A stretch of 63,563 bases of DNA, counting the filler, from Chrysochromulina tobinii (taxonomy: Eukaryota): assembly GCA_001275005.1 (NCBI GenBank). It is 6 parts of 6 records of this genome, joined end to end, with 100 filler letters (N's around TTAATTAATTAA, not from the genome) between each part and the next. Parts side by side here need not be neighbours in the genome. Positions count along the whole stretch, not along the records: positions 1 to 16,238 come from JWZX01000734.1; 5 more parts are not named here. One strand, 5' to 3'. Every line of letters starts with the position of its first letter. Within the stretch, counting starts at the first letter, position 1. Made by a program: the position numbers and the translations under genes. The notes beneath the pieces were generated by a model. That model had not been told where the DNA came from. It did not search any database and saw only the letters and a program-made list of their open reading frames with translations. Of this stretch, positions 2,502-51,604 are shown piece after piece.

Positions 2502-5500
2502 TTAGGCAGTGAAGTCCTCCTCCTCCGTCTTCGGCTTGCCCACCTCGGTCGAGACCATCTTCTCAAGCTTGCGCAGCTCGGGCTCGGGCAGGTCGGACTT
2601 ATCGACGTACCTGTGGGAAAGGGAGGAGAGGGCGCCGTGGTGAGCACTTGCATGCAGCCGTCGTGCTCGAGCGCGCCTCCGCCATCTCGAGCTTGGCGAC
2701 GTACCGCTTGGCGACGTATCGCAATCAGAGTTCATCAGAGGTAATCCGATCGAATTGGGGTCGCAATCAATGCCGCGGCACGACGTACCGCTTGAGCGAG
2801 GCAATCAGAGGTCATCAGAGGCAATCAGAGGTCATCAGAGGCCATCAATGCGGCGGCACGACGTACCGCTTGAGCGAGAGAGCGAGGAGCACATCTGCGA
2901 ACTTGACGAGCCCTCCCGGTTTCTCGACCTTGAGCTTCTTCGCGATGGACCTGGCGCTGTTGGCGGCGTCGTCCTCGCCGAAGGTGCCGAGGGGCGGGGG
3001 CACCTTTGCAATGAGCTCCGGCAGCATGCTTTCAGGGAGCTTGTTGTTGGCCTCCGGATCGAGCTCAGCCCATGCTTCCATGAAACCGTCAATGTCGGAG
3101 GGCGAGACGAGGTCGGGGTTCTGTGAATGTGAACAACGACGGGTGGTGGGCATCAGTGGTCATCAAGGGCGATGGTCATCAAGGGTCATCAATGGTCATC
3201 AAGTGATCATCAGTGGTCATCAGTGGTCATCAGTGGTCATCAGAGGTCATCAGTGATCATTTTCGCACCTGCTCGGAGAGCGAGGTGAAGTTCTCGATCC
3301 ATGGTCATCAGAGGTCATCAGTGGTCATCAGTGGTCATCAGTGGTCATCAGTGGTCATCAGTGGTCATCAGAGGTCATCAGTGATCATTTTCGCACCTGC
3401 TCGGAGAGCGAGGTGAAGTTCTCGAGGATCACAGCGACCATCAGGTTGAGGAACACCAACGTGCCGAAGAGCTGGAAGGTGACGAAATACGGGATCGCGA
3501 CCCATGAGCCGCAGTCGACGCCCTCGGTGCACAGGCCGGACTCTTCCTGCACGAGCGAATCTTGGAGCAGCAGCGTCCAGCCGTCGCCGGTCACCGACTG
3601 GAGCAGCAGCAGCATACCTGTGGGGAGAGGAGAGGGCGCCGTGGTGAGCACATGCATGCAGCCGTTGGTCACCGACTGGAGAAGCAGCAGCATACCGTTG
3701 CCCACGGTCTGGAAGTTGCCATCAGTTGCCATCAGTTGCCATCAGTTGCCATCAGTTTCCATCAGTTTCCATCAGTTTCCATCAGTTGCAATCAGTTGCA
3801 ATCAGCAGCATACCGTTGCCCACGGTCTGGAAGTTGCCATCAGTTGCCATCAGTTGCCATCAGTTGCCATCAGTTGCAATCAGCAGCATACCGTTGCCCA
3901 CGGTCTGGAAGTTGGCATGAGATTCGACGTTGTCCTGAAGGACCAACGTCGCGAACAGGTGCATGCCGAGGACGGCATAGATGAACATGACGAGCGCGAG
4001 CAGCGAGCACACGTTGAACACGGGTGGGAGAGAGAGGATGATGGTCGTGACGAGGTCACGCAGCCCCTTGACGCCCTTGAGGATGCGCAGGATCCGCACG
4101 ATCCGGAGCAGGCGGAGCACGCGGAGCAGGAATGGCGGCACCGGCAGGTAGGCCGTCAGGTCCGCCGCGAGGTCGTCGATGAGTGCGGTGCAGACGAGCA
4201 CGAAGTCGAAACGGTTCCAGCCGACCGAGAAGTAGCCTGATGAGGGGGCGCAATCGGAGGTGCAATCAGTCGCAATCAGAGGTGCACTCAATCGCAATCA
4301 GAGGTGCCATCACTGATGAGGGGGCGCAATCGGAGGTGCTCAGTCGTGCTCAGTCGCAATCAGAGGTGCCATCAGTCGCAATCAGAGGTGTGCTCAGTTG
4401 CAATCACGTACCAATCGGGCCGAGCGAGAAGATCTTGAGTGCAAACTCGGTATAGTAGACGCTGATAAAGAAGCGCATCGCGTAGTTGTACGCATCGCCC
4501 TTGGTCATCTCGAAGCCGGAGATCGAGATGAACGCGTCGTCCTCAAACTGGTACGATTTGCACGCCATCAGCAGCGTGTTCAGCAGGATGATCGTGATGA
4601 TGAAGATGTCGAAGTTGACCGACATGACGAGCTTGAAGATGTACATGCGCATCGAGCCTTCGGGCGGCGGCACTCCCTTCATCGGCTTCGCGAGCACAGC
4701 TGTCTTGATCGTCTGGACCCATTGGAGCTGAGCGCCGGTCATGGTAGCCGAGCCCGCGCCCGTCTCGGCGGCGATCGAGTTGAACGTCTCGACGATCGCG
4801 CCGATGAAGAGGTTGAGCGCGATGAAGGCGCCGACGAACATCCACGAGATCGTGAAGAGTGCGGCGGGCGAGTAGTCGTTGCGCACGGGCGCCAGGCCGG
4901 GGCCCTTGGCGGCCATCGCCTGGAACATCTCCGTCTCCCAGAGATCGCCCGAGGTCTGTGTGGAGATCGTGAGGAGATCGTGAGGAGATTGTGGGGAGAT
5001 CGTGGGGGGGATCGTGATGAGTCGTGAGGAGATCGTGAAGAGATCGTGAGGAGGGGGCGGCAAAACAAGGGCGCTCAAGGGCAAATCGATGGCAATCGAG
5101 GGCAATCAACCGGGAGAGCGTACCTGGAGGAAGAGCGCGAGCATCGCCGAGCCGAAGTTGTCGAAGGAGTTGCCTGGAGGGTTCTCCCACGTGTTGCCCG
5201 CCGTCACGCACTCCTCGACGGTGGCGATGGTCGGATCCTCCGTGCACATCGCGAAGGTGCCGGCGAACATCTGCATACCGAGGATGGGGCAAAGTCGGCA
5301 ATCAAGGGCAATCAAGGGCGATCAAGGGCGATCAAGGGCATCAAGGGCAATCAAGGGCACTCAAGGGCAAAGTCGGCAATCAGAGAGGCCGTCAGAGGCC
5401 GTCAGAGGGCCATCAAGGGCAATCAAGGGAGATCGCACCTGCATGCCGAGGATGGCGAAGACCGCTTGGATGAAGAGGTAGACGGCAAGCACATTCATGA

Positions 5501-8500
5501 CGGCCGGGATCGAGGCGATGAGGGTCGCGACGATCACTTTCATCGACTCAATGCGACCGACGAGCCGCAGGGGGCGGAGTGCACGGAGCACGCGGAGGGA
5601 CTTGAGGGGGGCGAGCGCCTCAATGTCGAGCACTTCCGCGGCGATGACGGTGACGGAGACGAGGACGATGGCGAAGTCGAGTTGGTTCCAGCCGTTCTTG
5701 AGGTAGGCTCGCTCGGTGAAGAGGAAGCCATAGGCGATGATCTTGAGGAGCGCCTCGGTCACGAAGATGGCCTGATGAGGGGGGCAATCATGCGGCCCAT
5801 CAGAGAGGCCATCAGAGCAGCCATCAGAGAGGCCATCAGAGAGGCCATCAGAGAGGCCATCAGAGAGGCCATCCGAGAGGCCATCAGAGAGGTCATCAGA
5901 GAGGCCATCAGAGAGGCCATCAGAGAGGCCATCAGAGAGGCCATCCGAGAGGCCATCAGAGAGGTCATCAGAGAGGCCATCAGAGAGGCCATCAGAGAGG
6001 CCATCCGAGGCCATCTGAGAGGCCATCCGAGAGGCGATCAGAGATGTTCACAGCTCCAGCGGCACGCACCGTGAACACGTAGTTGGTGAGCGTCAGCTGG
6101 GCTTCGAGAGGCGATTCGGGGTCAAGGAGTGGCGAGTCGATGGCGAGCGAGACCGACGAGGCGATGATGATGAACAGGATGAACATCTCAAAGTTCGGGT
6201 GACGCACGAACCACTCGCAACACCTGTGGAAGACATGGCGAGTGCGTCATCAGCGCGTCGTCAGCGCGTCATCAGCGCGTCATCAGCGCGTCATCAGCGC
6301 GTCATCAGCGCGTCGTCAGCGCGTCGTCAGCGCGTCGTCAGCGCGTCATCAGCTTACCTGCGAATGCCGTTGCGCGGGCCGAAGAGGCAGAGCGAGTGCT
6401 CCTGGGGCCATGGCAATCAACGGCAATCAACGGCAATCAACGAACCACTCGCCTCACCTGCGAATGCCGTTGCGCGGGCCGAAGAGGCAGAGCGAGTGCT
6501 CCTGGGGCCAGGGCTTCTCGACGAGCAGGTCAGACTTGGGCGGCGGCTTGGGTGGCTCCTCCACGGGGATCGGCTCCTCGCCTGGGGGGAGGGGGGGGAG
6601 CGCCGTGGTGAGCACTTGCATGCAGCCGATCGAGCCGGCTGTTCGACGGGGATCGGCTCCTCGCCTGGCTCGGGCTCCTCTTCCTCGCCGAATGCCGAGA
6701 GCACCATGCCTGCACGCAGAAAGGGGGGGGGGCGAGTGTGGGGGGGGGCGATGAGAGCAGCCGGCGGGGAAGGGGGAGCGATGAGTGTGGCCAGCGGAAG
6801 CCTTCGGTGCTATCCATGGCAATCAACGTCAATCAACCGTAATCCATGGTAATCAACGGGAGCGTACCGATGAAGATGTTCATGATGAAGGGACGCAATC
6901 AGCGGCAATCAATCAGCATGCAATTCGAGTCTGCGTACCGATGAAGATGTTCATGATGAGGAACGAGCCGACGCACATGCAAGGCACAAAGTACCAGAGG
7001 ACCTTGGGGCCGAGCACCGCCGAGGCAGCGAGAGAGGAGTCGACCCACTCGCCCGTGAACAGGATGAAGACCGAGATCAGGCCGGGCACGAAGTGGTCGA
7101 AGTTGGCGTAGTATGGGTGCTCCTCGAGGTCCGGGTTGGGGCAGACGGCGCCCGGGCAAGGCACCTCGGAGTAGCCAGCATCCTCGGTGTAGATGCCGCC
7201 GAAGAACTGTGGCGCAGGGGATGGTCAGGAGCGGTCAGGAGCGGTCAGGAGCGGTCAGGAGCGGTCAGGAGAGGTCATCAGCGGTCAGGAGAGGTCATCA
7301 GCGGTCAGAAGAGGTCATCAGCGGTCATGATCAGCGGTAATCAGGAGACATCCATTGCGTCAAATGGATGCCGAGGCAATCAAGGGACCATCAAGGGACC
7401 ATCAAGGGAGATCAAGGGAGATCGCACCTGCATGCCGGCGAGCACGAAGACGAGCATGAAGAGGAAGGTGACGATCCCGAGCGACGAGATCTTGGGGAAG
7501 ACGCGGATGAGGGTCGCCACGATGCTATAGAGCCCTTTCCACGACTGCATCAGGCACGGGGGACGCGCTGTGGTGAGCACTTGCATGCAATGCAGGCCGT
7601 CCGCATGCAATCACGATGTTATAGAGCCCTTTCCAAGACTGCACGGCGCGCTGTGGTGAGCACTTGCATGCAATCAACGCACCTTCATCAGGCGCAGGGC
7701 ACGCGCGATCCGAAGGAGACGCAGCATCCGAAGGAAGGAGAGCTGCGGAATCTCGCCGTCCGCGAAGACCGTGAGCACCTCCGTCACGAGGATCTCGAAG
7801 AGGGAGAGGAGCACAATCGTGCCGTCGAGCACGTTCCAGTTGTCCGCCCAGTAGCCGCCGCAACTGATGAGGGAGGCAATCAGGCAGGCCATCAGTGCCA
7901 ATCAATGGCATAGAGTGTTCCAGTTGTCCGCCCAGTAGCCGCCGCCCCCGAGGCGGAGGAGCTTGAGTAGCTTCATCAGTGGCAATCAATGGCAATCAGT
8001 GGCAATCAGTGGCAATCACCCGAGGCCGAGGAGCTTGAGTAGCTTCATCAGTGGCAATCAGTGGCAATCAATGGCAATCAGTGGCAATCACCCGAGGCCG
8101 AGGAGCTTGAGTAGCTTCATCAGTGGCAATCAGTGGCAATCAGTGGCAATCAGTGGCAATCACCCGAGGCCGAGCAGCTTGAATAGCTTCATCAGTGGCA
8201 ATCGATGGCAATCAGTGGCAATCAGTGGCAATCACCCGAGGCCGAGCAGCTTGAGGAACATCTCGAAGGCGAAGAGGAGCGTGATGACGAGACCGACGGA
8301 CTCGAGCTGCGCCGCATACCTGTGGGGAGAGGAGAGCGGGAGTTTCGTCAAGGAGAGCGCGCCGTGCTGAGCACTGGCATGTGCGGGGAGGGGGGGGGTT
8401 CGGACGAGTTCGGGCTGGGCCGTTTACTCCTCGCTCATGCCCGCGTATGGCATGCACATCAGGACCATGTTGATCTGTGAAGAACCGTGTGAAGGGCCGG

Positions 8501-10970
8501 AGTTACGCGCGCCGTGGTGAGCGTGGGCGTGGGAGTTGCGCATCGGACATGTCGATAGCAATCAATGGCAATCAATAGCAATCAACGGCCATCAATGGCA
8601 ATCAATGGCAATCAACGGCAATCAATAGCAATCAACGGCCATCAACGGCCATCAATGGCCATCAACGGCCATCAACGGCCATCAATGGCCATCAACGGCG
8701 GATCAACAGCAATCAATAGAAATCAACGGCCATCAATGGCCATCAATGGCCATCAACGGCGGATCAACAGCAATCAATAGAAATCAACGGCCATCAATGG
8801 CAATCAACGGCGGATTAACGGCAGACCCGCGATCTTGAACGAAAGTCACCGAGCTGTTGCCGAGGCCATCAACGGCACTCAATGGCTACTCAATGGCAAA
8901 ATCACTTGCAGTCAACGGCAGTCAACGGCAATCAATGGCAATTGCAATCACTTGCAGTCAACGGCAGTCAACGGCACTCAAGGGCAATTGCAATCACCAG
9001 CACGAGAGCGATCGAGCAGTTGCCAAGGAAGGCTGAGTTGGCAACCTTCTCCATGAACCCAGGCTCCGCCGAGGGCTGTGAAAGCTTCTTAGAGGAGGCC
9101 GTTGCGTCCATCTCCGCAGCGCGCTTCTCCATCTCCGCGGCGGCCAGGTCGACGCGGCCGAGCTGCGTGAACTCCTCGAAGAGGACGGCGAGGAAGAGGT
9201 TGCGCACCTGTGGGGAAGAGAGAGGGCGCCGTGGTGAGCACGTGCATGCAGGGCGCGTGCACGGGCAGGAGGTGGTGACTCACGAAGCAGCCCGAGATGA
9301 TGATGACGCCGAGGTAGTAGAGGACCACCTGATGAGGGAGGCGATTGAGAGGGTCATCAGACGTGATGAGGGAGGCGATTGAGAGGGTCATCAGACGTGA
9401 TGAGGGAGGCGATTGAGAGGGTCATCAGACGTGATGAGGGAGGCGATTGAGAGGGTCATCAGACGTGATGAGGGAGGCGATTGAGAGGGTCATCAGATGG
9501 GTCCTCGAAGGGACACATGAGTGGCCATCAAACGCCTTCGGTCCAGGCCATCAGAGGTCATCAGAGGCCATCAGAGATCATCAGAGATCATCAGAGGCCA
9601 TCAGAGGCCATGCCTTCAGAGGCCATCAGAGGCCATCAGAGGTCATCAGATGCCACCAGTGGTCATCAGAGGTCATCAGTGGCGCTCGTACAAGGCTCGA
9701 GCCGGTGTAGTCCATGAGCGCAAACATCGAAGTCTCCCAAGTGTCCCACGTGGACGTTTGCATCAGCGTGACCGAGGCCATGAGCACGCTGTCGTAGGAC
9801 ATCATGTTGTTGAACGGCTGTGACTCGAAATACGCGCACGTCTGGTCCGCTTCGCACATATCGCCCTCCGGATTGCAGGCAACTTCAGTGTCGAAGTCGG
9901 CTTCGTCAGAGACGCCCGGCTTGAAGCCCTTGAGCGCGCACCTGCATGCAATGAGGGAGCCCATCAGCTGAGTTGGCCAATTAGGGACGCCTGGCTCTGC
10001 ATGCAATGAGGGAGCCCATCAGCTGAGTAGGCCAATTAGGGACGCCCGGCTCTGCATGCAATGAGGGAGCTCATCAGCCGAAAAGGCCAACGACAGCCGT
10101 CCAAAGCGCCGTCTCGAGCGCTCGCACCGGTAGTGGAGCATGCCATCAGCAATCAGGCGCAATCATGCGCAATCAGGTGCAATCAGGCGCAATCAGCAAT
10201 CAACAATCAGGCGCAATCAGCAATCGGACGCACCGGTAGTGGAGCATGCCCTGGAAGAGCTCCATGCCCACGATGCCGAAGACGACGAACACGAAGATGA
10301 AGAGCATCGTCACGTTGCCAAGCTTCGGAATCACGTCCATGATGCCCTCGACGATCACCTTGAGGCCGGGGATGATCTTCATCGCGCGGAGCGCACGGAA
10401 TGCGCGGAGCGCTCGGAGCGAGTTGACGTTCGGCAGGTCGATGCCCGTCAGCAGGATCGGCGCCCACGCGCACGACACCACCACGAAGTCAAGTTGGCAC
10501 CATCCATCGTGCAGATAGCAGTTCTTGTTGCCGATGATGCCGTACGCCAGCATCTTGAGGAGCATCTCGACCGTGTAGGCGTACAGGAAGAAGACTTCCA
10601 GCTGATCAATGAAATCCGCCTTCCACGTGCCGGGTGGGTCCATCGGAGACTCCCACGCCATCACGCTCACGTTGAGCAGGATCACCATTAGGATCAACGG
10701 ATCGAACCACCAAGTGTTGATGAACTCAATCGCCCAATTGCGCGGGATCATGTCCGGCTTCAGGCAAAGGAGCGACACGCCATTCGGATCATAGGTGCGG
10801 CCATCGGGCCTAATGATCTCGACCGGCTGTACAAAGCCAGAACCCTTGGGCGTCTTCGGCGCCGCACCCTTGCCGCCAGGCGCCGCACCCTTGCCGCCAG
10901 GCGGTGAGGGCGGCTTGCTTGGTGGTTTCTTTGCATCGGTCGGCGGCGACTTTGGATCCTTGGGTGCCAT
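2502..10970 (-). CDS. Four-domain voltage-gated cation (Cav/Nav family) channel alpha subunit, 19 exons, about 1404 aa
   Basis: Exons read by hand: 10970-10234, 9941-9692, 9328-9284, 9207-8998, 8474-8428, 8319-8236, 7863-7683, 7544-7428, 7206-6939, 6709-6665, 6581-6458, 6223-6070, 5771-5439, 5270-5124, 4955-4412, 4236-3892, 3617-3397, 3120-2867, 2610-2502. They total 4215 nt with consistent phases; 17 introns are GT-AG and one is GC-AG. Four S4 segments (LRALRAFRALRAMK, LRMLRLLRIARALRLMK, LKSLRVLRALRPLR, LRVLRLLRIVRILRILK), four pore loops, NLFLAV/NIFIG/NLFIGA/NLMVAV S6 motifs and a C-terminal EF-hand-like WAELDP...PPPLG region. Confidence 0.93.
5798..6030. repeat. Intronic 12-bp microsatellite (GAGGCCATCAGA)n
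   Basis: Read directly; lies in channel intron 6069-5772. The sense-strand unit is TCTGATGGCCTC. Confidence 0.95.
9331..9497. repeat. Intronic 34-bp tandem repeat, 5 copies, each carrying an acceptor-like CCTCCCTCATC word on the sense strand
   Basis: gatgagggaggcgattgagagggtcatcagacgt starts at 9331, 9365, 9399, 9433 and 9467. Confidence 0.95.
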
Positions 10971-17706: not shown

Positions 17707-20700
17707 ATGGAGGCCATACGCACCTTGTGCAGCCCGCATCCGTGGGAGGAGGACCCCGCCGTGTTCGCGAGCGCCCTCGGTCAGCTCGCCGAAGTGGCGG
17801 CGATGGCGGACCTCGAGGATGCAAGCAAGCTGAGCAAGGCGGCCCGCGAGGCGGGCGCCCTGCAGCTCTGCTGCGACGCCGTGCGCCACGAGAGCGCGCG
17901 GGTGCATCAGCCGGCGCTCGCGGTGCTCGTCTGCTTCACGACCACGGAGGTCGACCCGGACGCGCACCTGAACCGAGCGATCGTGTCGGCGCACCCGCGC
18001 GGCTTCGAGGGCGTGGTCGAGCGGCTCTTCTCCGACGTGCCGCTCACGGTCGCCTTGGCGTGCGGCGCGCTGCAGAACCTGTGCCGCTCGGACGTTGCGC
18101 ACGTCGCCATGCTCTCCACATGCGGCGGCACCGAGCGGCTTCGATCGCTGACGATGTGCGGCCAGGACGGGATCGCCGTCGCGGCGAATGCATGCCTGAC
18201 GAACCTGCTCGGCTGGCATCGTGCCGCCTCCCGGGTACAGCTGCGATCGCTGATTGCCACTGATGACCGGCCTTTGCATGCAAGTGCTCATCGCAGCGCG
18301 CGTCCGCCTGGCAGGTCCAGCTGCGCTATCTGCGCCACCAGCGGCGCGTCATGGGCTTGCAGCTCAGGCGCATGAGTCATCTGAAGATGACGTCATTACC
18401 TAATTTGGGACGAGCTGCGCCCGCCCTCATCACCCTCGACGGCCAGCCCTCTCTCGCGACGGCCAGCCCGATTGTAAGTGCTCACTACGGCGCCGGGCCG
18501 CCCAGCATGCAAGTGCCCACCACGGCGGCGACGGCCAGCCCGGGCCCACCCTCGGTTTGCATCGCGCTCGTGCTCTTCAACCTTGTCGTGGCGTCGGCGG
18601 ACCAGGCTGAGTACCAGGCTGATGGCGCTCGAGACGGCGCTCGAGGTGGGAACGGTGCCCGGAGCCGATCCATCACGGATCCTAATTTGGGAGACCTCAC
18701 GGATCCTAATTTGGGAGACCTCGCGGATTTTCGAGCAGCACCGCCTCCTCCACCGCCAGCACCTCCTCCGCCGCCACCGCCGCCCGGGCTCCTCGCAGAG
18801 CAGTCGACCATCGCCGCCGCGGCGGCGGAGGCGCAAGCGGCCAGGGCCGACGCCGCAATGCAGAAGGTCGTGGTGGCGCGAGCGGCAGCAGCGGCTACAG
18901 CGGCGGCGGCGGCGGAGGCGGCCGCCGCCGCCGCGTCCACCGAGCCGCATGCCACTCCCAAAAAGGGACTTTCGTTGTTCAAGAGCGCTGGTCGGGCGGC
19001 GCTCACCGCCAATGCGATGCGACTGGAGCAGATACAGCGAGGTGATTGCATGCTGATTGCCTCCCTACTCATCGCCAATGCGATGCGACTGGAGCAGATA
19101 CAGCGAGGTGATTGCATGCTGATTGCCTCCCTACTCACCGCCAATGCGATGCGACTGGAGCAGATACAGCGAGGTGATTGCATGCTGATTGCCTCCCTAC
19201 TTGCATGCGACTGGAGCAGATACAGCGAGGTGATTGCATGCTGATTGCCTCCCTATTTGCATGCAATGCGAAGCGACTGGAGCAGATTCAGCGAGGTGTC
19301 GAGGAGCGGCGGCGTGCGTCCTAAATATGAGTGCATGCTGATTGCCTCCCTACTTGCATGCATGCACAGGAGTCGAGGAGCGGCGGCGTGCGTCCTAAAT
19401 ATGAGTGCATGCTGATTGCCTCCCTACTTGCATGCATGCACAGGTGTCGAGGAGCGGCGGCGTGCGTCCGCCTTGGCGGCCGAAATGTTCCGTCAAGCGG
19501 TGGCGTCGGAGCAGGCGGCGGCGGCGGAGGCGGCTCGCCTTGAGGCTGAGGAGCAAGCGAACGCTCGCAAGGCGGCCTTGGAGGCTGCACTGGCGGAGGT
19601 TTGATGAGCTTATGATGACCAATGATTGCCTCCCTCATCAACTCTGATGATGGCCCCTGATGCCCACATTGATTGCCTCCCTCATCACAGGTGGCCGCGG
19701 AGGCGGAGCGTGCACGCACGATGATTGCCTCCCTCATCAGCTCTGATGCCCACAGTGATTGCCTCCCTCATCACAGGTGGCCGCGGAGGCGGAGCGTGCA
19801 CGCACGGCAATGCATGCGGCGGCTGTTGCCAAGTGGGGAAAGGTAATCGCCTCTGATTGATGCCTCTGCCGGCTGCGCTTGAGTGCCCCTTCCTTAAGTG
19901 CCCCTGAGTGCCTGTATGCCTCGGAGTGCCGCTGAGTGCCCCTGAATGCATCTGAGTGCTTCACTCATTCGCTCGCCGTGGTCGACTGCGGACAGGCCGC
20001 GGCGTTGCAAGAAGCCGAGGCGGCGCGTACTGCGAGCGAGGTCGCTGTGGAACAGGTGATTGCATGCTGATTGCCTCCCTCATCAGAGGTCGCTGTGGAA
20101 AAGGCGCGGCTCCGCGTGGCTCGACGAGATGGCGCGGAGGTCTGATGATACTCTGATGAGCTGATGAGCTCTGAGGACCTACGATTGCCTCCCTCATCAG
20201 GCGCGGCTCCGTGTGCTCGACGAGGTGATTGCATGCTGATTGCCTCCCTACTTGCATGCTGATTGCCTCCCTCATCAGGCGCGGCTCCGCGTGCTCGATG
20301 AGGAGGCTGCACGTGCGACGGCGGAGGAAGCCGCGGCCGAGGCGGCTGCGAGGGCGTCGGAAGCGGCCGCGCGCGAGGCGGCCGCGTCGGCCGAAGCCGC
20401 CGCTGCCCGTGCCGCCGCGTCGGAGGCCAAAGGCGAGGCGGCGCTGATGGCGTCGGAGCTCGAGGCGAGATCGTCGGAGCTCGAGGCGAGATCGGCGGAG
20501 CTCGAGGCGAGATCGGCGGAGCTCACGATCTCGATGGAGCTCCGGCGGGAGGTTGAGCGTCGGGCCGCCGAGGAGCTCGAGGCGTGCCGTTTGGCGGCGC
20601 ACGCGGCGGCGCGCACGCGGCAGGCCGAGGTGAGGAGCCTGATTGCCATTGATTGCCTCTCTCATTGCATGCACGCGGCAGGCATTACGATTCTTTGTGT

Positions 20701-23597
20701 CCCGAGCCCTATTCCAAACCCTCACCCGAAGCAAAATCCTGAGCCTGCCCCCCTGGGCCTTGTGACATTGGGTGATGGCTTCGAAGGAACATGATTGCAT
20801 GCTGATTGCCTCCCTACTTGCATGCCTTCATAGGTGATGGCTTCGAAGGCGAGGCTCGCCGTCGCCGCATCGGGTCGCGAGCGTTTGGAGGAGACCCTCC
20901 GAAGGGCTGAAGGTCAGTTGAGCGAGGCCCAAGCTCAAGCGCAGGCCGACGTCCTGGCGAGGCTGGCGGCGGAGGAGGCGGCGGGGCGTGCGGCGGCGGC
21001 GGCGGAGGCGGCCGAGGCGCGGGCGCTCGCGGCCGAGGCGCTGGTGGTGCGTACGGAGGAGATGACGTCTGATTGCCTCCCTCATCAGCTCTGATGATGG
21101 CCTCTGATGCCCACAATGATTGCCTCCCTCATCACAGGTGCATACGGAGGAGATGACGGCCAGCCGCTTAGCCGCCGCAGAGGAGGAGGCAGCACGTGAG
21201 CCAGCTTCCGTGATGAGCATAAGAGTTTGAATGTGCTTGTGATGAGGGAGGCAATCACTGTGGGCATCAGAGGCCATCATGAGTTTGAATGTGCCTACGA
21301 TCGCCTCTGATGGCCTCCCTCATAAAGCACGGCCGCTGAGGGGCTATCCTCTGATTGCCATGGATGGCCTATGATTGCATCTGATGGCCTCTCTCATCAG
21401 GCACGGCCGCCCAGCTCCTCTGTGAATACGAGACCGCCGAGGCGGAGCGAAGGTGTGAATACGAGGCAGCCGAGGAAGAGCGAAAGCGTTGCCTTGATGA
21501 ATGGGGTGCAAAGATGGCGCAGGCGGAGGCGACGGCGGCGGCGGCGATTGAGGACGCAAACCTGCGTGTGATGGAGGCGGAGGCGGAGGCGGAGGCGCGG
21601 GCCGCGGCGGTGGCGCGAGAGAGTGCGGCTGCAGTCCAAGCAGCGCAGGTTTGATGACCAACTGATGGGCCTCTGATGGTCCCTCTGTTGGGCCTCTGAT
21701 TGGCCCTCTGATGGGCCTCTGATTGGCCCTCTGATGGGCCTCTGATGGCACACTGATGACCAATTGATGGCCCACTGATGACACACTGGTGGCCCTCATT
21801 CTGTTTCCGATCTGAGTGCCTTACGATTGCCATCTGATCGCCACCTTTCTGATTGCCCCCCTCATTGCATGCAGGTTGGCGCGGCCCGCCTGTTGGAGGA
21901 AGGCCTCGCGGCTGCCTGCTGATTGCCACCCTCATTGCATGCAGGTTGGTGCGGCCCGCCTGCTCGAGGAAGGCCTCGCGGCTGCCAAGGCATCGGAGGC
22001 AGCGGCCGTGCAGCATGCAATTGACGAATCCTCAGCCAAAGAGGCCGCCCAAAGCGCGCTCGCAATCGCCTCCGCGCGACACCTGAGCTCGCAAGCGGAG
22101 CTCGAATCTCAAATCGAGAGATTGCGAGCGGAGCTCGAATCTGAAGCTGCAAGATTGCAATCTGAGCTCGCGGAGCGGACGACCGAGGTGGCGCGCCTGT
22201 TCGCAGCCCTGAGCCGTGAACAGCAGGAGTGCCAGGCGCTGCAGGCGAAGGTGCTGCGAGGCGCGCGGCTGGCGTCGGCGCATACGCTCGAGTTGGCGGC
22301 GCTGCGGGGACGGCTCGCGCGGCGCACGATCCAGATGGCGGCCTTGGAGGAGGAGGTACGTGACGCAACCCAAGTGTCACCCGAGTGCCTCTGATGGAGT
22401 CTTGATTTCCTTGGAGGTTTGTGAATGCCACCTAATTGGAGGCACCTGATTGCCACTTAATTGCCACCTGATCGCCACCTAATTGCCACCTGATCGCCAC
22501 GGATTGCGGCCACACACACCGATGTCGAAGAACGGCCTTTGCTTGCATGCACATAGGTGCGAGCGACGCAGCTCGTCCTAAACATGATTGCATGCTGATT
22601 GCCTCCCTACTTGCATGCACATAGGTGCGAGCGACGCAGCTCGTCCTAAACATGATTGCATGCTGATTGCCTCCCTACTTGCATGCACATAGGTGCGAGC
22701 GACGCAGCTCGTCCTAAACATGCGAGATTGCGACGTGCATGCACTCAAGGCGCTCTTGCACGCCCGGGCGTCGCCGCCCACATCCCCCTCTCTCGGGCCT
22801 CATCTCGGCCCTAATCTCGGGCCTAATCTCGGGTCTCATCTCGGGCCTAATCTCGGGCCAGCGTGGTCAACCTCGGCCCCCGCACGCGGCCCGGCGCGTT
22901 CGAGCACAGGCTTGGTCTCAGGTCTCGTCAGCACAGGCATGGTCTCAGGTCTCGTCGAGCACTCGCGCCAAGTCGAGGCCGCCAGAGGCAATCTGTACAC
23001 TCACATGCAATCCCATGCCCTCCGCGGCCTGATGACCGACGCGAGGCCCAAGCCTCCCAACACGGCGCTACACAACCTCCTCGGTGCAGACTCATCCTCG
23101 GATGCTTCCGCTGCCGCCGCCGCCGCCGCTACCGCCGCGCCGGCTGCCGCTGCGTTCATCGCTGTGGACTCGCCCAATACAGCGCTCCAGCCCCCACCGT
23201 CGCTGCCTCGGCTACACGTAGCGCCGCCCCGTGCCGGAGCTGCACCGGAGATCGCGCTCGCAGCAGGTCCAGGCGCCGTACTGGGCGCCGGCGCAGGTCA
23301 CTCATGTGCATGCACCGGGGGAGCAGGTCACTCGTGTGCACGCATCTCGATGGGAGGTTGCATCTCGATGGGAGGGCTCTCGCCGTCATCAAGCCCCCCT
23401 CCCGAGATGCCACCTCCCGAGGAGGAGATGCGTTGGAGATCGCGAGCTCGCCCCCCCGCGCCCGAGCGAGCTCGCGAGCTCCACAGCCGAGCTCGCAATC
23501 TCAACCGAATCTCGATGCTCCTCGCCGACGAGATGCTCCAGGTGGGCGTCGTGGTGGGCAGCAACAAGGAGGACGGCGTGGCGGGCGGCGCCGGCGC

Positions 23598-42088: not shown

Positions 42089-45000
42089 CTAACCTGTGAA
42101 GTGTGAATTAATAACATTCAATTCACACTTCACAGTTCCGAGCGCGGGCACCCGCACGCGCCCGAAGCGACATTCGTAGTGTGAGCCACCACCGAAGCCG
42201 GCGCCGACGAGGGTGAGGTTGATGCCGCCGACGGCGGGGCCGAGGGGCGGGAGGAGAGCGGAGACGACGGGCGTCGCCTCGAAGAAGAAAGTGAGCGCGC
42301 TGGGCGCAACGTCCTGCGCATTCAAGCTGAGGCGGAGGGCGGCGGGTCCGGGGGCGAGCGAGCCTGGCGAATAGCATCGGACGTGCGCGTCGTCGATCAA
42401 CGTGGCTGGGCACGACGGTGTCATCATTGAAATGGCATCGGTATAGGTGGCGCTCACCCGCGCCCAGCCAAGCGCCGCTCACGGTCACCAGCGTGCCAAC
42501 GGAGCCGCCGCCTCGGCAGTCGAAGCTCGTGCACTGGATAGAAAACGCGGGCCCTCTTGCGGGACTCGCCTCCAGCAGCAAGGGCTCGGGAGCGAAGGTG
42601 TAGTTGAACGTGGTGGGCTCGTAATGCTCGCCGTTGAAGCTCACAGCAAGCACGACGCGACCCGGCGCGTGGGGCGGCGTGAGGCAGCGAAGGTCACCCG
42701 TGGCCGCGTCGTACGAGGCGCGCACGATGGCGGCACCCTCATCGGGCGCACTGTCCCCTTGGCCGACGGTGGGCGCGCCCTCTCCTTCCCCAAAGCGGCA
42801 GAGGAGGAGCGAGCCGAACTCGAGGGTGACGCCGGAGATGAGGACGAGGCTGGAGCCGTTGGCGGGCCCGAGGGAGGGGCGCACGCCGAGCAGCCGAGGC
42901 GACGGCTCCTCCCCGGCGATGATCTCGAACCGAAGCGAAGGGGCGAGCGAGTACTGCTGGCCGTTGAGCGTCACGTCGAGGGTCAGTGGCAGCGCGGTGG
43001 ACACGGCGTCGCTCACGTGCGAGCGAGCGGCCGCGAGCACATCAGGTGGTATCGCGGGCGCTGGGCACACGAGCAAGAGCCCGCCGCCCCCGATTTCGAG
43101 TGCACGCGTCTCCACCACGCCGAGGGTGGGCGCGCGGTAACGGCAGCGCGCGTCGGAGCCGTTGGCGAGCCCGCGCCCGCTCAAAAGGATCGGCCGACCG
43201 CCCAAACTCGAATCGAAGGTGGGGAAGACGCTGATGAGGCTCGTGCGGTCCGTCAAGTAACGGAAGCGGAGATTGTCGGAGGTGAAGTCGTGGCCGTTGA
43301 GCGCGATCTCGATCGCGAGCTCGCGCATCGGCCCGCGCACCGAGGGCGGCGTGAGGCAGAGGGCGTGCGTCGCGTTCACAATGGTGGCGGGCACCTCGTT
43401 CGGTGGCAGCCCATGCAGCGCGCGGGCACCGACGCCGTGTGCGCCTTGCAGCGCGTCACTCGTCGTGAGGGCACTGAGCGCGCCAAAGCCGCGCCGCCAC
43501 AGCGCGCCGCCAAAGCGGCAGACGGGCAGCGTGCCATGGCGCGTGAGGTTGGCACCTCGCACGTCGACGAGCGTGCCGCCGAGTGCAGGCCCGGTGGTGG
43601 GCGAGAGGGCGAGCAGCGCGGGAGGGTCGTAGAATCGAAAGGGGAGGGAGGAGGAGGTCTCGTCTTGGCCGTTGAGAGAGATCTGAGGAAGGAGCACGCC
43701 GGCACGCACGCCGGCAGGCGTGGCGCAGTGCACAAAGGGGGCGGCCGGCGTCGTGTTGAGCGCGGGCAGCACCCTTGGGCCCGCCCACTGCGCATTCGCG
43801 TGCGCATCCAGCGCCACGCCGCCGCCCCCTGGCCCGAAGCGGCAATAGTACGACGAGCCATCGCGCAGCCCTTCGCCCGCCAAGAGCAGCAACGAGCCCC
43901 CCGCCGTCGGCCCGCTCGCCGGGGTGATGGCGCTCACAATCGGCCGCCCAATGTAGACGAGGGGAGGCGCAGCGGATTCCTCGTAGTCCTGCCCGTTGCG
44001 CGTGATGTGCAGCGGCGTCGGCTGCGCCTCGGCAGGCGCGCCCACCCAAAGCCGCACGCGGCGCACGCGGCAGGCATTCGCGCCCACGCCGCTCGCCGCC
44101 GCAAAGCCGAGGCGCCACGAGGGATGCGGTGCCCAAGCCGGGATGGGGGCGCCCCGCAGCAGAGCATGCCCGTGGTACAGGATGCTCAAGCCGGCGCGTG
44201 CGCCGCCGTGCGTGCCAAGGTCGTACGCGAGGACCACGGGCACGTACGAGTCCACGCCGCTTGCGCCCGCGCTACCCACCGTGCCGTTGGCGCCGCCGCC
44301 CGCTGACGACGACAGCCCCGCTGACGGCGACGTGCCGCTCGCAAAATTGGCGCTCGCCAAGAGGTCCGCCAGCTGGTGCGCCGTCGTGTTCGGATCCCAC
44401 GCCGCTCGCTCCAAGGCAGCCTGCCGCTCCCACGCCGCCCGCTCCCGATCGCCCTCGTACTCCTCCATCTCCGCCGGCGAGTACTCCTCCTCCGCCTCCG
44501 CCTCCTCCTCCGCCTCCTCCGTGCGGTTCCTCCGCACTGCTACCGCGGCCGCCGCCGCCGCCGGCTGGCCTGCGCGGCGCGGCGCGGGCGGCAGCGCCAG
44601 AGAGTGGAGCACCTGGTCGCCATAGAGCACCTCGAGCCTCGCTGGCCGAAGGCGCGAGAGGAAGCGGAGGCGGAGCCCGAGGCTCGCGCCGCCCGCACCG
44701 AGCCCGCCATCGTCGGAGAGCTCGCCGTAGCTCACGCTCGCCCCGTCGCCATCGCGGCCGAGCTCCAGCTCAAACGAGAGCACGAGGTGCGCCGCGCCGC
44801 CGTAGCGCACGCCCTGAGGCGCCGCACACACGGCCGTACCCTCGGCGTCGTACGTGCTCGAGGGCGTGAGCTCGATGCTGCCGTCGGGTAGGTGGCGGGC
44901 AGCGCCGTGCACGGAGCAGTCGGCGGACGTGGCCTCGAGCGCGGCGCCGGCGGTGGCGGCGGGCGGCGTGTAGCAGATGAGCTGATCGTCAGTCGCGAGC

Positions 45001-48000
45001 GGCTCCGCGGACACGACGACGACGCCAAAGCGGCAGCGGAGCAGCGCCGACGCACCGCCAAAGCCACTCCCACGCAGCGTCAGGCTCGTGCCGCCGGCAG
45101 CGCTCGCCGTCGGCGGGTGGATGGATGACACGACGGGCGGCACGTAATAGCGATACTCGAGCGGCGGCGTCGCAAAGTGCTCGTCGCGACCGTTGAGGCT
45201 CAGCCGGAGCGGCACCACGCCGCCGCTGCTTGCCAGGCCCAGCCCGCCCGCATCCGCCGCCGACGGTGCGATGCATCGGAGCACGTCGCCACCGCCGAGC
45301 TCGGCGAGGGTCGCGTTGACGACTCCGGCGCCAAAGATGCACCTACGGTCGTGGCCGCGCGCGAGGGCGGTGCCGTGGACGATGACGAGGGTGCCGCCCG
45401 AGGTGGGACCGAGCGCGGAGGTGCTCCCCAACGTGTCCACCACCGCACGCTCGGCCGTCGCGTGGACGAACTCGAAAGGCAACGGATTCACGGCCGTTGG
45501 GTCGGCGTCGAGCCACCGATCGTACGCGTGCTCGATGCCGTTGAGAGAGAGGCTCACGTTCACCAGGAGGCCCTCGCCAGGCGCGAGCGCCGTGGACGGC
45601 GCGTCGCACAGCACGGCCTCGTCGGAGGCATTGAACGAGGCGGCCACTGACATGTGTCCGAAGAGGCATCGGTAGTCGGTGCCGCCGCCGAAGTTGGCGC
45701 CGCGGAGGACGACGGGGGTGCTCAGGGCGGCCGCGCCCGTGCGTGGCGCGACTGAAGAGACGACCGGGGGTGCGCGGTACCCAAACGTGTGGGAAGCGAG
45801 CGCCTCGAATTGCTGGCCGTTGCGCGAGAGGAAGACTGGCACCTCGGCCGTGGAGCGAAGCGCGCCACTCGCAATCTGGACGTTGTCAATCCACTGCATC
45901 TGGTGCGAGGAGCCGCGGGAGCCATGGACGCCCACGCGCCACGTGGCCGCCGGCCGCCAGCCGTTGAGCGCCCACCCGTCCACGAGGCGCACGTCATCGT
46001 ACCAGAGGCTGAGCCGGCCTGCGACGATGCTCAGCTGCAGCCGGCGCCAGCTGCGCGAAGGCAGCGCCACCGACGGCAGCCACGCCGTGTACTCCTGCCA
46101 CGCCGCGCTGTGACTGACGCCCGGGCTCGAGGCGCGGGGCTGGTGGATGATTCGGACGTACGTGGCGACGCTCGCATTCGTCGCGTTCGCGTCGCGCGCC
46201 GCGCCGTAGCCGAGCAGCACGCGCACGCCCGCCGCGGCCTCCGCCTCTTCCTCCTCCTCCTCGTCGTTGCCCACGGTCGACGGAGGGCGAGAGGGCGACG
46301 GGGCATTACCTACCGCTTCGTACGAAGGCACTCGGCTTCGGAGTTCGCAGGCGCCGTCGCGCCGACGGCATTCGCCCGCGGCGATCGCCACATCGTCTGC
46401 TGTGAACGTCGTCGCCGACCAGTGCAGGTCAGGCCCCACCGCGGCGTACCCGCCCACGCCGGCGCCCCCGTCCTCCGCCTCCGGCGCGACCTCCGTTTCG
46501 TCCGTTTCGTCCGTTTCGTCCGGTTCGTCGCCGAGAGGGCCGAGGGCGGTGGGCAGCCGAGCGTTGCCAAAGCTGAGGCACAGTCCGTGTGGGTCGATGG
46601 CGTGACGGCTGCCCGCCCACGGCCCCGTCATGAGTACGTCTAGGCTCAGGACCAGGTGCTCGAGCGGTGGACGCGGCCCAAGCACACGCACCCGCAGCGC
46701 TCCGTAGTCGACGCGCCGCCATTCGGGGTAGCCCCGCACGGTCAGGCGCAGGGCGCCGCGCTCGATGCGCGCGAGCCCACTCAGCTCCACGGCTAGCCCG
46801 TGCTGCGCCCACGCCGCCGCTGCTGCCGCTGTGCCGTTGACACCATCGGACACTTCGCTGAATGTGAGCATCCGAGCGCCGTCGCCCGAGCGCTCGCGCG
46901 AGACGTCGCCATAAAAGGTGCGCGGCTCAGGCGCGAGCAGCGGAGCGAGGGCTAGGTGCGCGTGCGGCGAGGTGCACTGCACGCCTCCCACTGCGGCGTC
47001 GTACGTGGCGGGCACCACCGCATACCCAAAGCGGCACGCGTACGACAGCCCCCCGCCGAGCCCGTCGCCGCCACGCAGTGTGACATTGGTGCCGCCGATG
47101 CTAAGCCCCTGCGGCGGGAAGAGGTCAAAGGCGGCGGCGCGTGCGTAGTACGTGAACCCGAGCGGCGTCGGCTGGCCGCCATCGTACTGCTGAGCGTTGA
47201 GGGAGAGGCGCACGGCGGCGGAGCGAACAACGGCCGATGGCGGCGTCACGCATCGCATTGTGCCGTCGGCCAATGAGGCCGTGCCCATCACCTCAACGCC
47301 GTCGAATGCGCAGCGTGCGCCGCCCCGCCAGGCGCTCGGAGCTGCCACCTCGAGGAGCGCCATTGCCGCGCGCGCCTCGGCGCCGCCCTCGATGGTGACG
47401 ACCGTGCCGCCCACCACCGGTCCCCCCAAGGGCGCGACCACCGCCCAAGACGGCGGCACATAGTATGCAAAGCGCGCCGCCGCCTCGTGCCATTGATGGC
47501 CGTTCAGGGAGAGGGCGATACGCCCGTCCAAGGCCAGTCCGCCCGCGCCCAGCGCCGCCCCGCCGTCGTGAGAGCCGTTGAGGGGAGGGACGAGGCATCC
47601 GAGCGAACCGAGCGCGAGCAGCGGCGGCGGCACGGGCGGCGCAGACGGCCACTGCCAGCGGGCCGAGCGAGCGGGCGCGAGCAAGGCCCCCGGGGGCGGC
47701 GGCGCGCCCGGCGGCGAGGCGGGCGGCAGGAGGTGGCTCGTAGCGGCGCCGAGGCTCGCATTGGAGCACGCGGACACGTCAGCGAGGACGCGCACCCCTC
47801 CGAGCATGCAATGGAGCGGCGCGAGGCCCACGCACAGCGACGGGCCTCGCAGCGTGAGCCGCGTGCCGCCGTGCACAGGGCCCGCGTGCGGCGCGAACCA
47901 CGAGACGCGCGGCGGCTGCGCATAGGTCAGCAGCGGCCCTTGCGTCGAGAAGTCGGCGCCACCGTTGCCGCTCACCTCGACGGAAGAGGTCACGACGGAA

Positions 48001-51000: not shown

Positions 51001-51495
51001 GCCGACGGCCGATCCAAAGTCGCACATCAAGTGGTCGCCCGTGGGTGCAAGATTGCGCGCGCGCACGGTGACGACCGCGCCGCCGAGGCCGCCGCTGCTG
51101 CGCGCCGCGCATGCCACGCCGCTCGGAGCAAACGAGAGGAGCTCCGGCGGCACCTGCGCATCGTAGTAGACGATCGTCGCATTGCCGACGTCGACGGGCG
51201 AGACGGAGCCGCCGGCCGCGGTGACATTTCCGACGAGCCTGAGCGGTGCGGCACCTATGTCACGCAGCGACGTGGGCGCGAGGCAGAGGCACGTGCGCTG
51301 CTCAGTCCCGTTCGCGGTGGCCTCGCACGGAGAGGAGATGTCGCCGTCGAAGACGCAGCGCGGTCCGAGCGGGAGCGTCACCGGCGCACGCACCTCTAGT
51401 CGCGCGCCGCTGCGAGCGTCGACGGCGAGCGGCCTCACGTCGAGCGTAGGCAGCGTCGCAGCGAGCCAGGAAAGCCAATGCACCAGGAAAGCCAT
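42089..51495 (-). CDS. Giant secreted IPT/TIG-repeat protein with interspersed legume-lectin/ConA-like domains; two frame breaks and a truncated end (pseudogene or assembly errors)
   Basis: Signal-peptide-like MAFLVHWLSWLAATLPTL. Many PxSGPxxGGTxxxxxG...CxFG...CxxP...SLNG units, and DGLSVVYG...WRIGFGARTG lectin-like segments. Spread over ORFs 51495-50284, 50498-42123 and 42457-42089. Confidence 0.85.
42094..42135. repeat. Perfect 16-bp inverted repeat with a 10-nt loop
   Basis: ctgtgaagtgtgaatt (42094-42109) and aattcacacttcacag (42120-42135). Confidence 0.95.
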
Positions 51496-51604
51496 GTGGC
51501 GCCAATCACAGCCAATGTTGTAAACTTGGTCGCGTAGGTTGGTGATTGCAGGTTCATCAAACTACACAAAGGCAGCCTGGTGAGCGCGACATCCCGGTCC
51601 CTGC

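What the first reader, a model, noticed from the sequence alone, without database searches (positions are those of the whole stretch)
7864..8235. Introns contain copies of their own spliced exon-exon junction: candidate undescribed intron-building system
Seen: inside this intron, 7917-7967 reads CTCAAGCTCCTCCGCCTCGG-GGGCGGCGGCTACTGGGCGGACAACTGGAAC. This matches exon 6 end joined to exon 7 start at 47/51 nt, a join that otherwise exists only in mRNA or in an intron-less allele. The junction is GG|TT rather than AG|GT, so read-through of the donor cannot explain it. Three further exon-end-plus-donor copies precede it. The pattern recurs at 3667-3718, 19273-19321 and 20086-20128, in two genes on opposite strands and different contigs. 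Inference: introns are born, or repeatedly rebuilt, by iterative templated copying of the local sequence interleaved with shared branch-point/acceptor cassettes. Possible mechanisms are break repair with template switching or mRNA-templated synthesis. I know of no description of this combination, but I cannot search the literature here.
Basis: partly seen in the sequence, partly recalled or inferred. Interest (0 to 1): 0.92.

Follow-up and report, generated by a model that had tools for sequence, protein, structure and literature searches.

The report
Introns built by long self-duplications
In this haptophyte alga many introns consist of a 12-60-base copy of the exon that follows them plus a short shared splice-signal piece, and the exon-exon junction seen inside one intron is likely that intron's old front edge, buried by later duplications, which points to a still-active and apparently undescribed variant of intron creation.

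Summary
Intron 6 (8235-7864, minus strand) of a four-domain ion-channel gene is spliced in two RNA runs and holds a 47/51 copy of its own junction; the three other cited copies are also there. The intron is four 72-nt units plus an 84-nt tail with this organism's common intron form: a copy of the next exon's start, then a shared branch-point/acceptor cassette. The tail's donor has likely decayed (GT to GG), so the 'junction' is an old exon-intron boundary and needs no mRNA template. In 128 metagenome loci plus the window, 278 of 327 cassette acceptors are followed by GT/GC, 132 have an upstream exon-start copy (median 26 nt), and 27 of 30 internal junction copies have GT/GC exon starts. One allele pair 0.8% apart differs by two whole introns. 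Cassettes resemble their neighbours, and one sits inverted between 14-nt repeats. Verdict: an introner-like system with long, variable duplications, one fixed end and local templates; the enzyme is unknown. The scan noted the basic repeat-flanked intron before in this genome (e1-2577349).

The parts
2502..10970 (-). Gene A: four-domain voltage-gated Ca/Na channel, 19 exons, 18 introns, 1404 aa
   Evidence: Stop-free spliced frame, 73.5% identical to P0002; Ion_trans hits; several joints bridged by RNA contigs
7864..8235 (-). Intron 6, 372 nt = 4 x 72-nt unit + 84-nt tail
   Evidence: Spliced in X11 and X12; anatomy
7948..8235 (-). Four 72-nt units (8235-8164, 8163-8092, 8091-8020, 8019-7948): GTG donor start, 10-nt branch-point-like repeats, copy of the last 19-20 nt of exon 6; copies drift from the exon with distance
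7864..7947 (-). Inferred original 84-nt intron: 31-nt copy of exon 7 start (7947-7917, GT likely decayed to GG) + 53-nt X2 cassette (7916-7864)
   Evidence: Sequence; same form and size as 73 simple introns, median 80 nt; the decay is inference
7917..7967 (-). The flagged junction copy, 47/51: last exon-end copy joined to the old exon-start copy
   Evidence: covered without difference by an X12 contig
3618..3891 (-). Intron 16: two exon-end/donor units + 78-nt tail (29-nt exon-start copy + X1 cassette); junction copy at 3667-3718
6582..6664 (-). Intron 10: simple form, GC donor taken from a perfect 19-nt copy of the next exon, X1 cassette
   Evidence: boundaries from frame and homology
5271..5438 (-). 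Intron 13: mirror form, acceptor taken from a 16/17 copy of the preceding exon end
   Evidence: an X11 contig fits the spliced form
9942..10233 (-). Intron 1 with an internal junction copy (22/22, CG|GT)
2611..2866 (-). Intron 18 with two internal junction copies (20/20, 14/14, CG|GT)
19042..19443 (+). Gene B intron with three exon-end/donor units and a junction copy at 19273-19321 (AG|GT)
   Evidence: 48/49; frame open across the join; no RNA laid
20056..20278 (+). Gene B intron with a junction copy at 20086-20128 (AG|GC)
   Evidence: 40/42 with one gap; frame open across the join; no RNA laid
21223..21294 (-). Inverted 44-nt cassette copy inside a gene B intron, between 14-nt direct repeats; its three best matches are gene B's own cassettes

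Best explanation
The junction copy is likely the intron's own former 5' boundary: the intron ends in a copy of the next exon's start plus a shared acceptor cassette, and later duplications across the donor likely buried that boundary. Step 1 (form shown, origin inferred): a 30-70-nt piece from the 3' end of a nearby intron is copied into a staggered break, which duplicates 12-60 nt of the target. If the duplicate starts with GT or GC it serves as the donor, the cassette supplies branch point and AG, and the mRNA is unchanged. Step 2 (inferred; one allele pair differs by such a unit): a further insertion or duplication that spans an existing donor is also silent, moves the donor upstream and leaves exon end + exon start inside the intron; slippage then multiplies the unit and the old donor can decay. 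Enzymatic step (inferred, about 0.4 on its own): nick-primed reverse transcription of the 3' end of a just-excised intron RNA near its own gene, as in target-primed retrotransposition. This would explain an end at the AG, a variable other end, variable long duplications, local templates and either orientation.
For: Intron 6 = 4 x 72 + 84 nt. Distance from internal junction to acceptor is 51-98 nt in 17 of 23 cases with GT/GC donors, like the 67-92 nt (10th-90th percentile) of 73 simple introns. 288 of 466 cassette acceptors have an upstream copy of the following sequence, against 12-24 in five swaps. 278 of 327 non-redundant acceptors are followed by GT/GC, and 27 of 30 internal junction copies have GT/GC exon starts. 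Duplications in the 73 simple introns: median 25 nt, range 12-60, 27 perfect, 95% mean identity. L016 and L067 (0.79% mismatches) differ by two whole introns and by one 94-nt unit that creates an internal junction copy. Local templates: best cassette match is a neighbour in 15.9 of 54 (X1; 2.6 expected) and 17.2 of 128 (X2; 1.6 expected). End at the AG without a GT/GC at the duplication start: about a dozen clean cases among the 31 listed, and the inverted copy at 21223-21294, whose best matches are gene B's cassettes (41, 40, 38 of 43; others at most 35). 68 and 65 DNA contigs share the cassette and leave it at 7864.
Against: No enzyme was found: 0 of 195 long ORFs hit a reverse transcriptase, transposase or Rep family among the Pfam hits shown (under 1 Mb sampled). 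Most fillers in the donor-spanning units are 10-nt-type repeats that do not end at AG, and several cassette copies stop 2-6 nt short at a microhomology, which fits DNA-level template switching better. Plain tandem duplications without a cassette also occur. 135 of 327 acceptors have no clear duplication; 29% of 110 testable ones show a decayed copy against 7% in the null. No convincing carry-over of a parent's exon sequence was found (1 doubtful candidate). Microhomology at the variable end is weak: 1.44 nt in 24 testable cases against 0.41 in shuffles, and about 0.8 once boundary overshoot is allowed for (the correction is my estimate). The inverted case is a single example and ends in AA, not AG. 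Acceptors were found by motif, which favours AG ends, and only gene A has RNA support. All three allele differences come from 1 of 11 pairs, their direction is not polarised, and two assemblies otherwise identical over 7 kb differ by a repeat unit (L016/L030), so unit numbers from short reads are unsafe.
Confidence: 0.7

Rival explanations
1. Same architecture, but the insertion step is DNA-only: break repair or fork restart with microhomology-guided template switching to a nearby intron (polymerase-theta-type end joining or MMBIR; pathways recalled). The fixed AG end then comes from selection for spliceable products and from AG|GT being the commonest microhomology. This rivals only the enzymatic step.
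For: Fillers without an AG end and chimeric 10-nt repeats that borrow target letters; cassette copies ending early at microhomologies; G at -1 in 57 of 73; cassette-free tandem duplications; Daphnia neointrons with 4-12-bp repeats are read as staggered-break repair (PMC4202315, passages).
Against: The cassette ends at its AG in about a dozen cases where the duplication does not start with a donor, and at the matching position in one antisense copy; no clear case runs on into a parent's exon (not searched exhaustively).
Confidence: 0.35
2. The cassettes are tiny non-autonomous elements moved by a Rep/HUH transposase of the Replitron type. This also rivals only the enzymatic step.
For: Replitron-1 inserts with one fixed end, one fuzzy end and variable-length target duplications, and a Replitron-like locus is reported in Chrysochromulina tobinii (PMC10288648).
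Against: Terminal direct repeats of 6 nt or more in only 7 of 71 inserts; at least two unrelated cassette families; templates are local; no carry-over of parent flank shown; no long element ending in a cassette among 135 sites searched (1 copy at 767 nt). The paper calls the Replitron-1 signature non-canonical.
Confidence: 0.1
3. The junction copies are templated from spliced mRNA or an intron-less allele.
For: Intron-less alleles do exist in populations. In L016 the added unit carries a longer exon-start copy (23 nt) than the unit shared with L067 (11 nt), which a simple duplication of the L067 state does not give.
Against: 27 of 30 cases are read-through compatible; the flagged copy mismatches the mRNA at the junction itself; junction-to-acceptor distances equal simple-intron lengths; no distal junction is copied. 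The L016 case also follows from a later 8-nt loss or the reverse order of events.
Confidence: 0.07
4. Plain tandem genomic duplication of an AGGT-containing exon segment, with shared cassettes arising later by convergence.
For: A recognised mechanism (PMC3443670, passages); AG precedes the donor in 28 of 73 simple introns.
Against: 45 of 73 lack AG before the donor, so the acceptor must be imported; perfect duplications already carry a full cassette; the pattern TGATTGCCTCCCTCATCAG has 16 window matches against 0.01 expected.
Confidence: 0.04
5. Assembly artefact or cDNA chimera.
For: Short-read assemblies disagree on unit number (L016/L030, L025/L062); no long reads were available.
Against: The copy differs from the mRNA at 4 of 51 places; an RNA-run contig carries it with intron flanks on both sides; the pattern recurs in many assemblies and in alleles 1-2% apart.
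Confidence: 0.02

Closest known systems
Introner-like elements of Symbiodinium and Polarella glacialis classes 4/5 and 6/8/10 (10.1101/2020.10.14.339549, parts 1-2 of 4 read)
   Same: The element carries the 3' splice site, the 5' splice site comes from the target duplication, and downstream exons start with the donor dinucleotide.
   Different: There the duplication is fixed per class at 3-8 nt, and the Symbiodinium elements have inverted repeats. Here it is 12-60 nt and variable, the 5' end is ragged, inverted ends are rare (5 of 71) and templates are local.
Introners of marine Chrysochromulina MAGs (PMC9860276, passages and part of the supplement table)
   Same: Same genus-level group; short GT-AG repeat introns; the figured family has target duplications and no inverted repeats.
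   Different: The figured family has a 4-bp duplication, carries the 5' site and co-opts the 3' site. That pipeline needs similarity near both intron ends, which introns with a site-specific 5' half would mostly fail (my inference).
Intron gain by tandem genomic duplication and by staggered double-strand-break repair (PMC3443670; Daphnia neointrons, PMC4202315; passages)
   Same: A duplicated exon segment supplies a splice site; direct repeats at intron ends; repeated later breaks lengthen young introns.
   Different: Daphnia repeats shared with an exon are 4-12 bp; the tandem model needs AGGT in the duplicate. Here the acceptor is imported as a cassette shared across the genome.
Replitron-1 / Replitron-N1 of Chlamydomonas (PMC10288648, parts 1-4 of 7 and passages)
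   Same: One fixed end, one fuzzy end, variable-length target duplications.
   Different: 0.9-3.6 kb elements with terminal direct repeats and a Rep transposase; not described as making introns in the passages read.
Target-primed reverse transcription by non-LTR retrotransposons and SINEs (recalled, no call)
   Same: Fixed 3' end beside the downstream duplicate, truncated 5' end, variable duplication length, either orientation.
   Different: No autonomous partner, Pol III head or poly(A) tail is seen; the inferred template would be an intron's own 3' end.

Membership tests
Introners (transposon-derived repeat introns) | Many introns share sequence and sit at unrelated sites | tested here: met
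   327 non-redundant cassette acceptors in about 0.86 Mb selected for the cassette
Introners (transposon-derived repeat introns) | Similarity reaches both intron ends (working definition in PMC9860276) | tested here: not met
   The 5' 12-60 nt is site-specific exon copy; the commonest first 6 nt of the insert occurs in 5 of 71
Introners (transposon-derived repeat introns) | Precise presence/absence between close relatives | tested here: met
   Two introns absent in L067 against L016; 1 of 11 allele pairs, direction not polarised
Introners (transposon-derived repeat introns) | A splice site recruited from the target duplication | tested here: met
   73 simple introns with the GT/GC donor at the start of the duplicate; splicing of these is inferred except in gene A
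MITE-type (TIR) introners | Terminal inverted repeats | tested here: not met
   6 nt or more in 5 of 71 inserts (null 0.7%), no shared motif
MITE-type (TIR) introners | Fixed 3-9-bp target duplication | tested here: not met
   12-60 nt, median 25; the search needed 11 or more matches, so short duplications among the 135 no-copy sites are not excluded
Replitrons | Short direct terminal repeats | tested here: not met
   7 of 71 inserts, null 1.9%
Replitrons | Fixed end, fuzzy end, variable duplication (Replitron-1) | tested here: inconclusive
   Geometry matches; parent-derived fuzzy end not shown
Replitrons | Rep HUH transposase in the genome | not testable with these tools
   No genome is held; the paper found no Pfam domain for this protein, so could not see it
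SINE-like retroposons (target-primed) | Fixed 3' end, truncated 5' end, variable duplication | tested here: met
   site finding favours AG ends
SINE-like retroposons (target-primed) | Autonomous partner with reverse transcriptase sharing the 3' end | tested here: inconclusive
   None in 195 ORFs or upstream of 135 sites; a small part of the genome
Tandem genomic duplication introns | Both splice sites come from a duplicated AGGT | tested here: not met
   45 of 73 lack AG before the donor; the acceptor is in the cassette
mRNA-templated insertion | Copies of junctions that do not exist in genomic DNA, or of two successive junctions | tested here: inconclusive
   None convincing among 30 or in gene A; low power for two-junction copies

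The most novel reading that the evidence does not exclude
Spliceosomal introns in this alga reproduce in cis: the 3' end of an excised intron RNA is reverse-transcribed into staggered nicks of its own gene, duplicating 12-60 nt of target that becomes the new donor. Introns would seed more introns in the same gene without any transposon of their own, and the process is still segregating in natural populations.
Probability: 0.3. Interest if true: 0.92.

Novelty: new variant of a known kind. Interest (0 to 1): 0.72.

Why it matters
How new spliceosomal introns arise is still open, and the introners in the papers read are mostly short DNA-transposon-like elements with 3-9-bp duplications. Here half of each young intron is the gene's own sequence, the rest comes from a nearby intron, and alleles with and without the intron coexist in an organism that grows in culture and has RNA data. 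That makes an RNA versus DNA route directly testable. It also explains why most cassette acceptors are followed by GT/GC, why introns cluster in some genes while long neighbours have none, and why surveys that need end-to-end intron similarity would likely miss this class. Such introns can also mislead gene prediction and read mapping.

Tried and rejected
No whole genome is held. The cassette pattern and the channel orthologue found nothing in viral contigs. The first read-laying at 90% likeness was swamped by cassette repeats, so its joint table was not usable; only the long pieces and loose ends were used. DNA runs showed no piece over 7910-7975 at 99%, but also none over exon parts; treated as no result. 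A tree to polarise gain against loss placed the window's protein outside both Chrysochromulina paralogue clusters (quick tree, support 94), so it does not polarise. Relatives P0002 and P0001 have cluster members of 1416-1429 aa on contigs of 6-21 kb, which hints at intron-less genes, but their DNA could not be fetched and full-length calls are biased towards intron-less genes. Of 25 opposite-strand cassette pairs, 24 were printed and only the window case was a clear antisense insertion; most were chance hits of the GC-rich X1 core. The negative correlation of duplication and insert length (rho -0.67) is partly built in by boundary calling and the 130-nt cut-off and is not used as evidence. Clustering of cassettes (variance/mean 2.45) is inflated by seed selection. 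Searches for parent carry-over and for long autonomous elements were negative. A recalled report of 10-11-bp tandem repeats in Emiliania introns was not found in the library and stays a lead; arrays here peak at 10 bp (270 arrays).

Full report
Setting. The window is a chain of contigs joined by N spacers. The finding lies in gene A (10970-2502, minus strand), a four-domain voltage-gated channel. A 19-exon model gives a stop-free 1404-aa protein, 73.5% identical to P0002 and 70.7% to P0001. Both clusters contain Chrysochromulina tobinii and C. parva proteins, so the organism is likely a related but different haptophyte. Sixteen public runs hold the stretch, ten DNA-like and six RNA; one of them may be the window's own source.

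Observation. All four cited copies are present: 47/51 at 7967-7917 with three exon-end-plus-donor copies before it, 51/52 at 3667-3718, 48/49 at 19273-19321 and 40/42 with one gap at 20086-20128. Intron 6 is spliced at exactly 8235-7864 in RNA runs X11 and X12, and the joined form is not listed for DNA runs X2 and X4. An X12 contig covers 7868-7985, copy and intron flanks, without a difference. Junction copies occur only in their own intron (4 of 18 cognate, 0 of 306 other pairs), and 161 of 162 exact intron/CDS 14-mer matches lie at the intron's own junction.

What the flagged intron is. It splits into four 72-nt units and an 84-nt tail. Each unit begins GTG, continues with 10-nt branch-point-like repeats and ends in a copy of the last 19-20 nt of exon 6. 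The tail is a 31-nt copy of the start of exon 7 followed by a 53-nt cassette ending in the acceptor. The junction codes Gly-Cys and the Cys is kept in P0002. An ancestral GG|GT needs one silent change in the exon and one change in the copy that removes a competing donor, and it matches the GTG at the present donor. The total number of changes equals the alternatives, so this rests on the pattern below and is inference.

The pattern across the genome. L054 is identical to the window's second contig and is not independent. Of 466 cassette-ended sites, 288 have an upstream copy of the sequence that follows them, against 12-24 when that sequence is swapped between sites. After removing redundancy and repeat-like flanks, 327 remain: 278 are followed by GT or GC, 132 have an exon-start copy without an exon-end copy, 30 have only acceptor-plus-exon copies, 30 have an internal junction copy and 135 have no clear copy. 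Among the 132, 73 start with GT/GC and span at most 130 nt. These simple introns are a duplicate of 12-60 nt (median 25; 27 perfect) plus a cassette of two main families, X1 and X2, with a fixed AG end and a ragged start; median total length is 80 nt. Of the 30 automatically called internal junctions, 27 have GT/GC exon starts; the others are the flagged TT and two unclear calls. In 17 of the 23 cleaner cases the distance from the internal junction to the acceptor is 51-98 nt, the size of a simple intron. These introns are defined by motif, not by RNA.

Evidence of recent activity. Eleven pairs of loci that look like alleles (0.6-2.3% mismatches, about 14.8 kb aligned, about 21 acceptor-like sites) were compared. 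One pair, L016 and L067, differs by a two-unit 132-nt intron at an AG|GT site with an 18-nt or longer duplication, by a 68-nt intron with only a 4-nt redundancy, and by a 94-nt unit that creates an internal junction copy in L016. L067 keeps other introns, so it is not cDNA. Other pairs differ only in repeat number or cassette-free indels. Direction is not polarised. Collapse in assembly is possible for the 94-nt unit, unlikely for the 132-nt intron and not available for the 68-nt one.

Where the cassette comes from. The best match of a cassette is a neighbour within 3 kb on the same strand far more often than chance: 15.9 of 54 for X1 (2.6 expected) and 17.2 of 128 for X2 (1.6 expected). Later gene conversion between neighbours could also give this. 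Inside a gene B intron, a 44-nt cassette lies inverted between 14-nt direct repeats at 21223-21294; its three best matches are gene B's own cassettes. Slippage cannot invert, and splicing does not select an antisense end, yet the geometry is the same. About a dozen of the 31 non-GT/GC cases printed also show a near-perfect duplicate starting right after the cassette's AG.

Mechanism. Shown: the anatomy, its excess over chance, splicing of intron 6, presence/absence in one allele pair, local similarity. Inferred: insertion at a staggered break, selection for GT/GC-starting duplicates in exons, and silent re-insertion across existing donors as the source of junction copies (confidence 0.7). For the enzymatic step I favour nick-primed reverse transcription of an excised intron's 3' end (about 0.4), because splicing defines exactly that end and releases the RNA next to its gene; the geometry of target-primed retrotransposition is recalled knowledge. 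DNA-level template switching is close behind (0.35): most donor-spanning fillers lack the AG end, some cassette copies stop early at microhomologies, and microhomology at the ragged end is only weakly raised. A Replitron-type transposase is possible (0.1). No candidate enzyme was seen in 195 long ORFs.

Comparison with what is known. Introners that carry the acceptor and take the donor from the target duplication are described in dinoflagellates with fixed 3-8-nt duplications (10.1101/2020.10.14.339549, parts 1-2 of 4; supplements not seen). Introners are reported in marine Chrysochromulina with a 4-bp duplication and the opposite polarity, and that pipeline requires similarity near both intron ends (10.1101/2022.06.06.494994 and PMC9860276, passages; supplement places 1-32 and 37-66 of 214, give only yes/no/unknown for duplications). 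The 2025 follow-up does not name haptophytes, Replitrons or SINEs in its main text (PMC12130899, term search). Tandem duplication and break repair are reviewed in PMC3443670 (passages); Daphnia neointrons share 4-12-bp repeats with an exon (PMC4202315, passages). Replitron-1 has the same end geometry (PMC10288648, parts 1-4 of 7). PMC11282704 (passages) and PMC12403724 (abstract) added nothing closer. Ten searches showed no description of long variable duplications with local cassettes or buried junctions; the library lacks most subscription papers.

Verdict. Real, genome-wide and probably active. It works like an introner but fails the usual membership features (end-to-end similarity, fixed short duplication, inverted ends). 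The flagged junction copy is a by-product of this system, not evidence of an mRNA template. Class: new variant of a known kind. Interest 0.72; 0.92 if the cis RNA route is right (probability 0.3).

Noticed in passing
window 21223-21294: Inverted copy of gene B's own acceptor cassette between 14-nt direct repeats inside an intron; the only clear antisense insertion found.
   Followed up: yes
L016:4644-4711 against L067: A 68-nt GT-AG intron with an X2 cassette but no long duplication (only a 4-nt redundancy) is absent from the other allele; its 5' part matches nothing else in the data. It may be a whole intron moved from elsewhere, a short-duplication introner, or a precise loss.
   Followed up: partly
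window 5271-5438 and 7545-7682: Mirror-form introns whose acceptor comes from a 17-24-nt copy of the preceding exon end; this class was not surveyed in the loci.
   Followed up: partly
L016 (94-nt unit), L034 near 3468 on +, L025: Some donor-spanning units leave an exon-end copy of 18 or 24 nt between an internal AG and a GT, a possible in-frame micro-exon.
   Followed up: no
window introns and loci: Tandem arrays peak at a 10-nt period (270 arrays; 369 of 823 arrays of 8-12 nt contain TGAT or TGAC), often chimeras of a branch-point-like motif and local target letters.
   Followed up: partly
window about 42200-51500: A GC-rich minus-strand stretch of about 9 kb that looks like one long repeat-domain gene with no cassette matches, in the same window as genes with 14-18 introns; read by eye only.
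   Followed up: no
L064 against L048; L004 against L002: Cassette-free tandem duplications of 60 and 180 nt between close copies, suggesting a general tendency to duplicate locally.
   Followed up: no
L026:8122-11885: Argonaute/Piwi gene pieces (ArgoMid and Piwi hits) on the minus strand.
   Followed up: no
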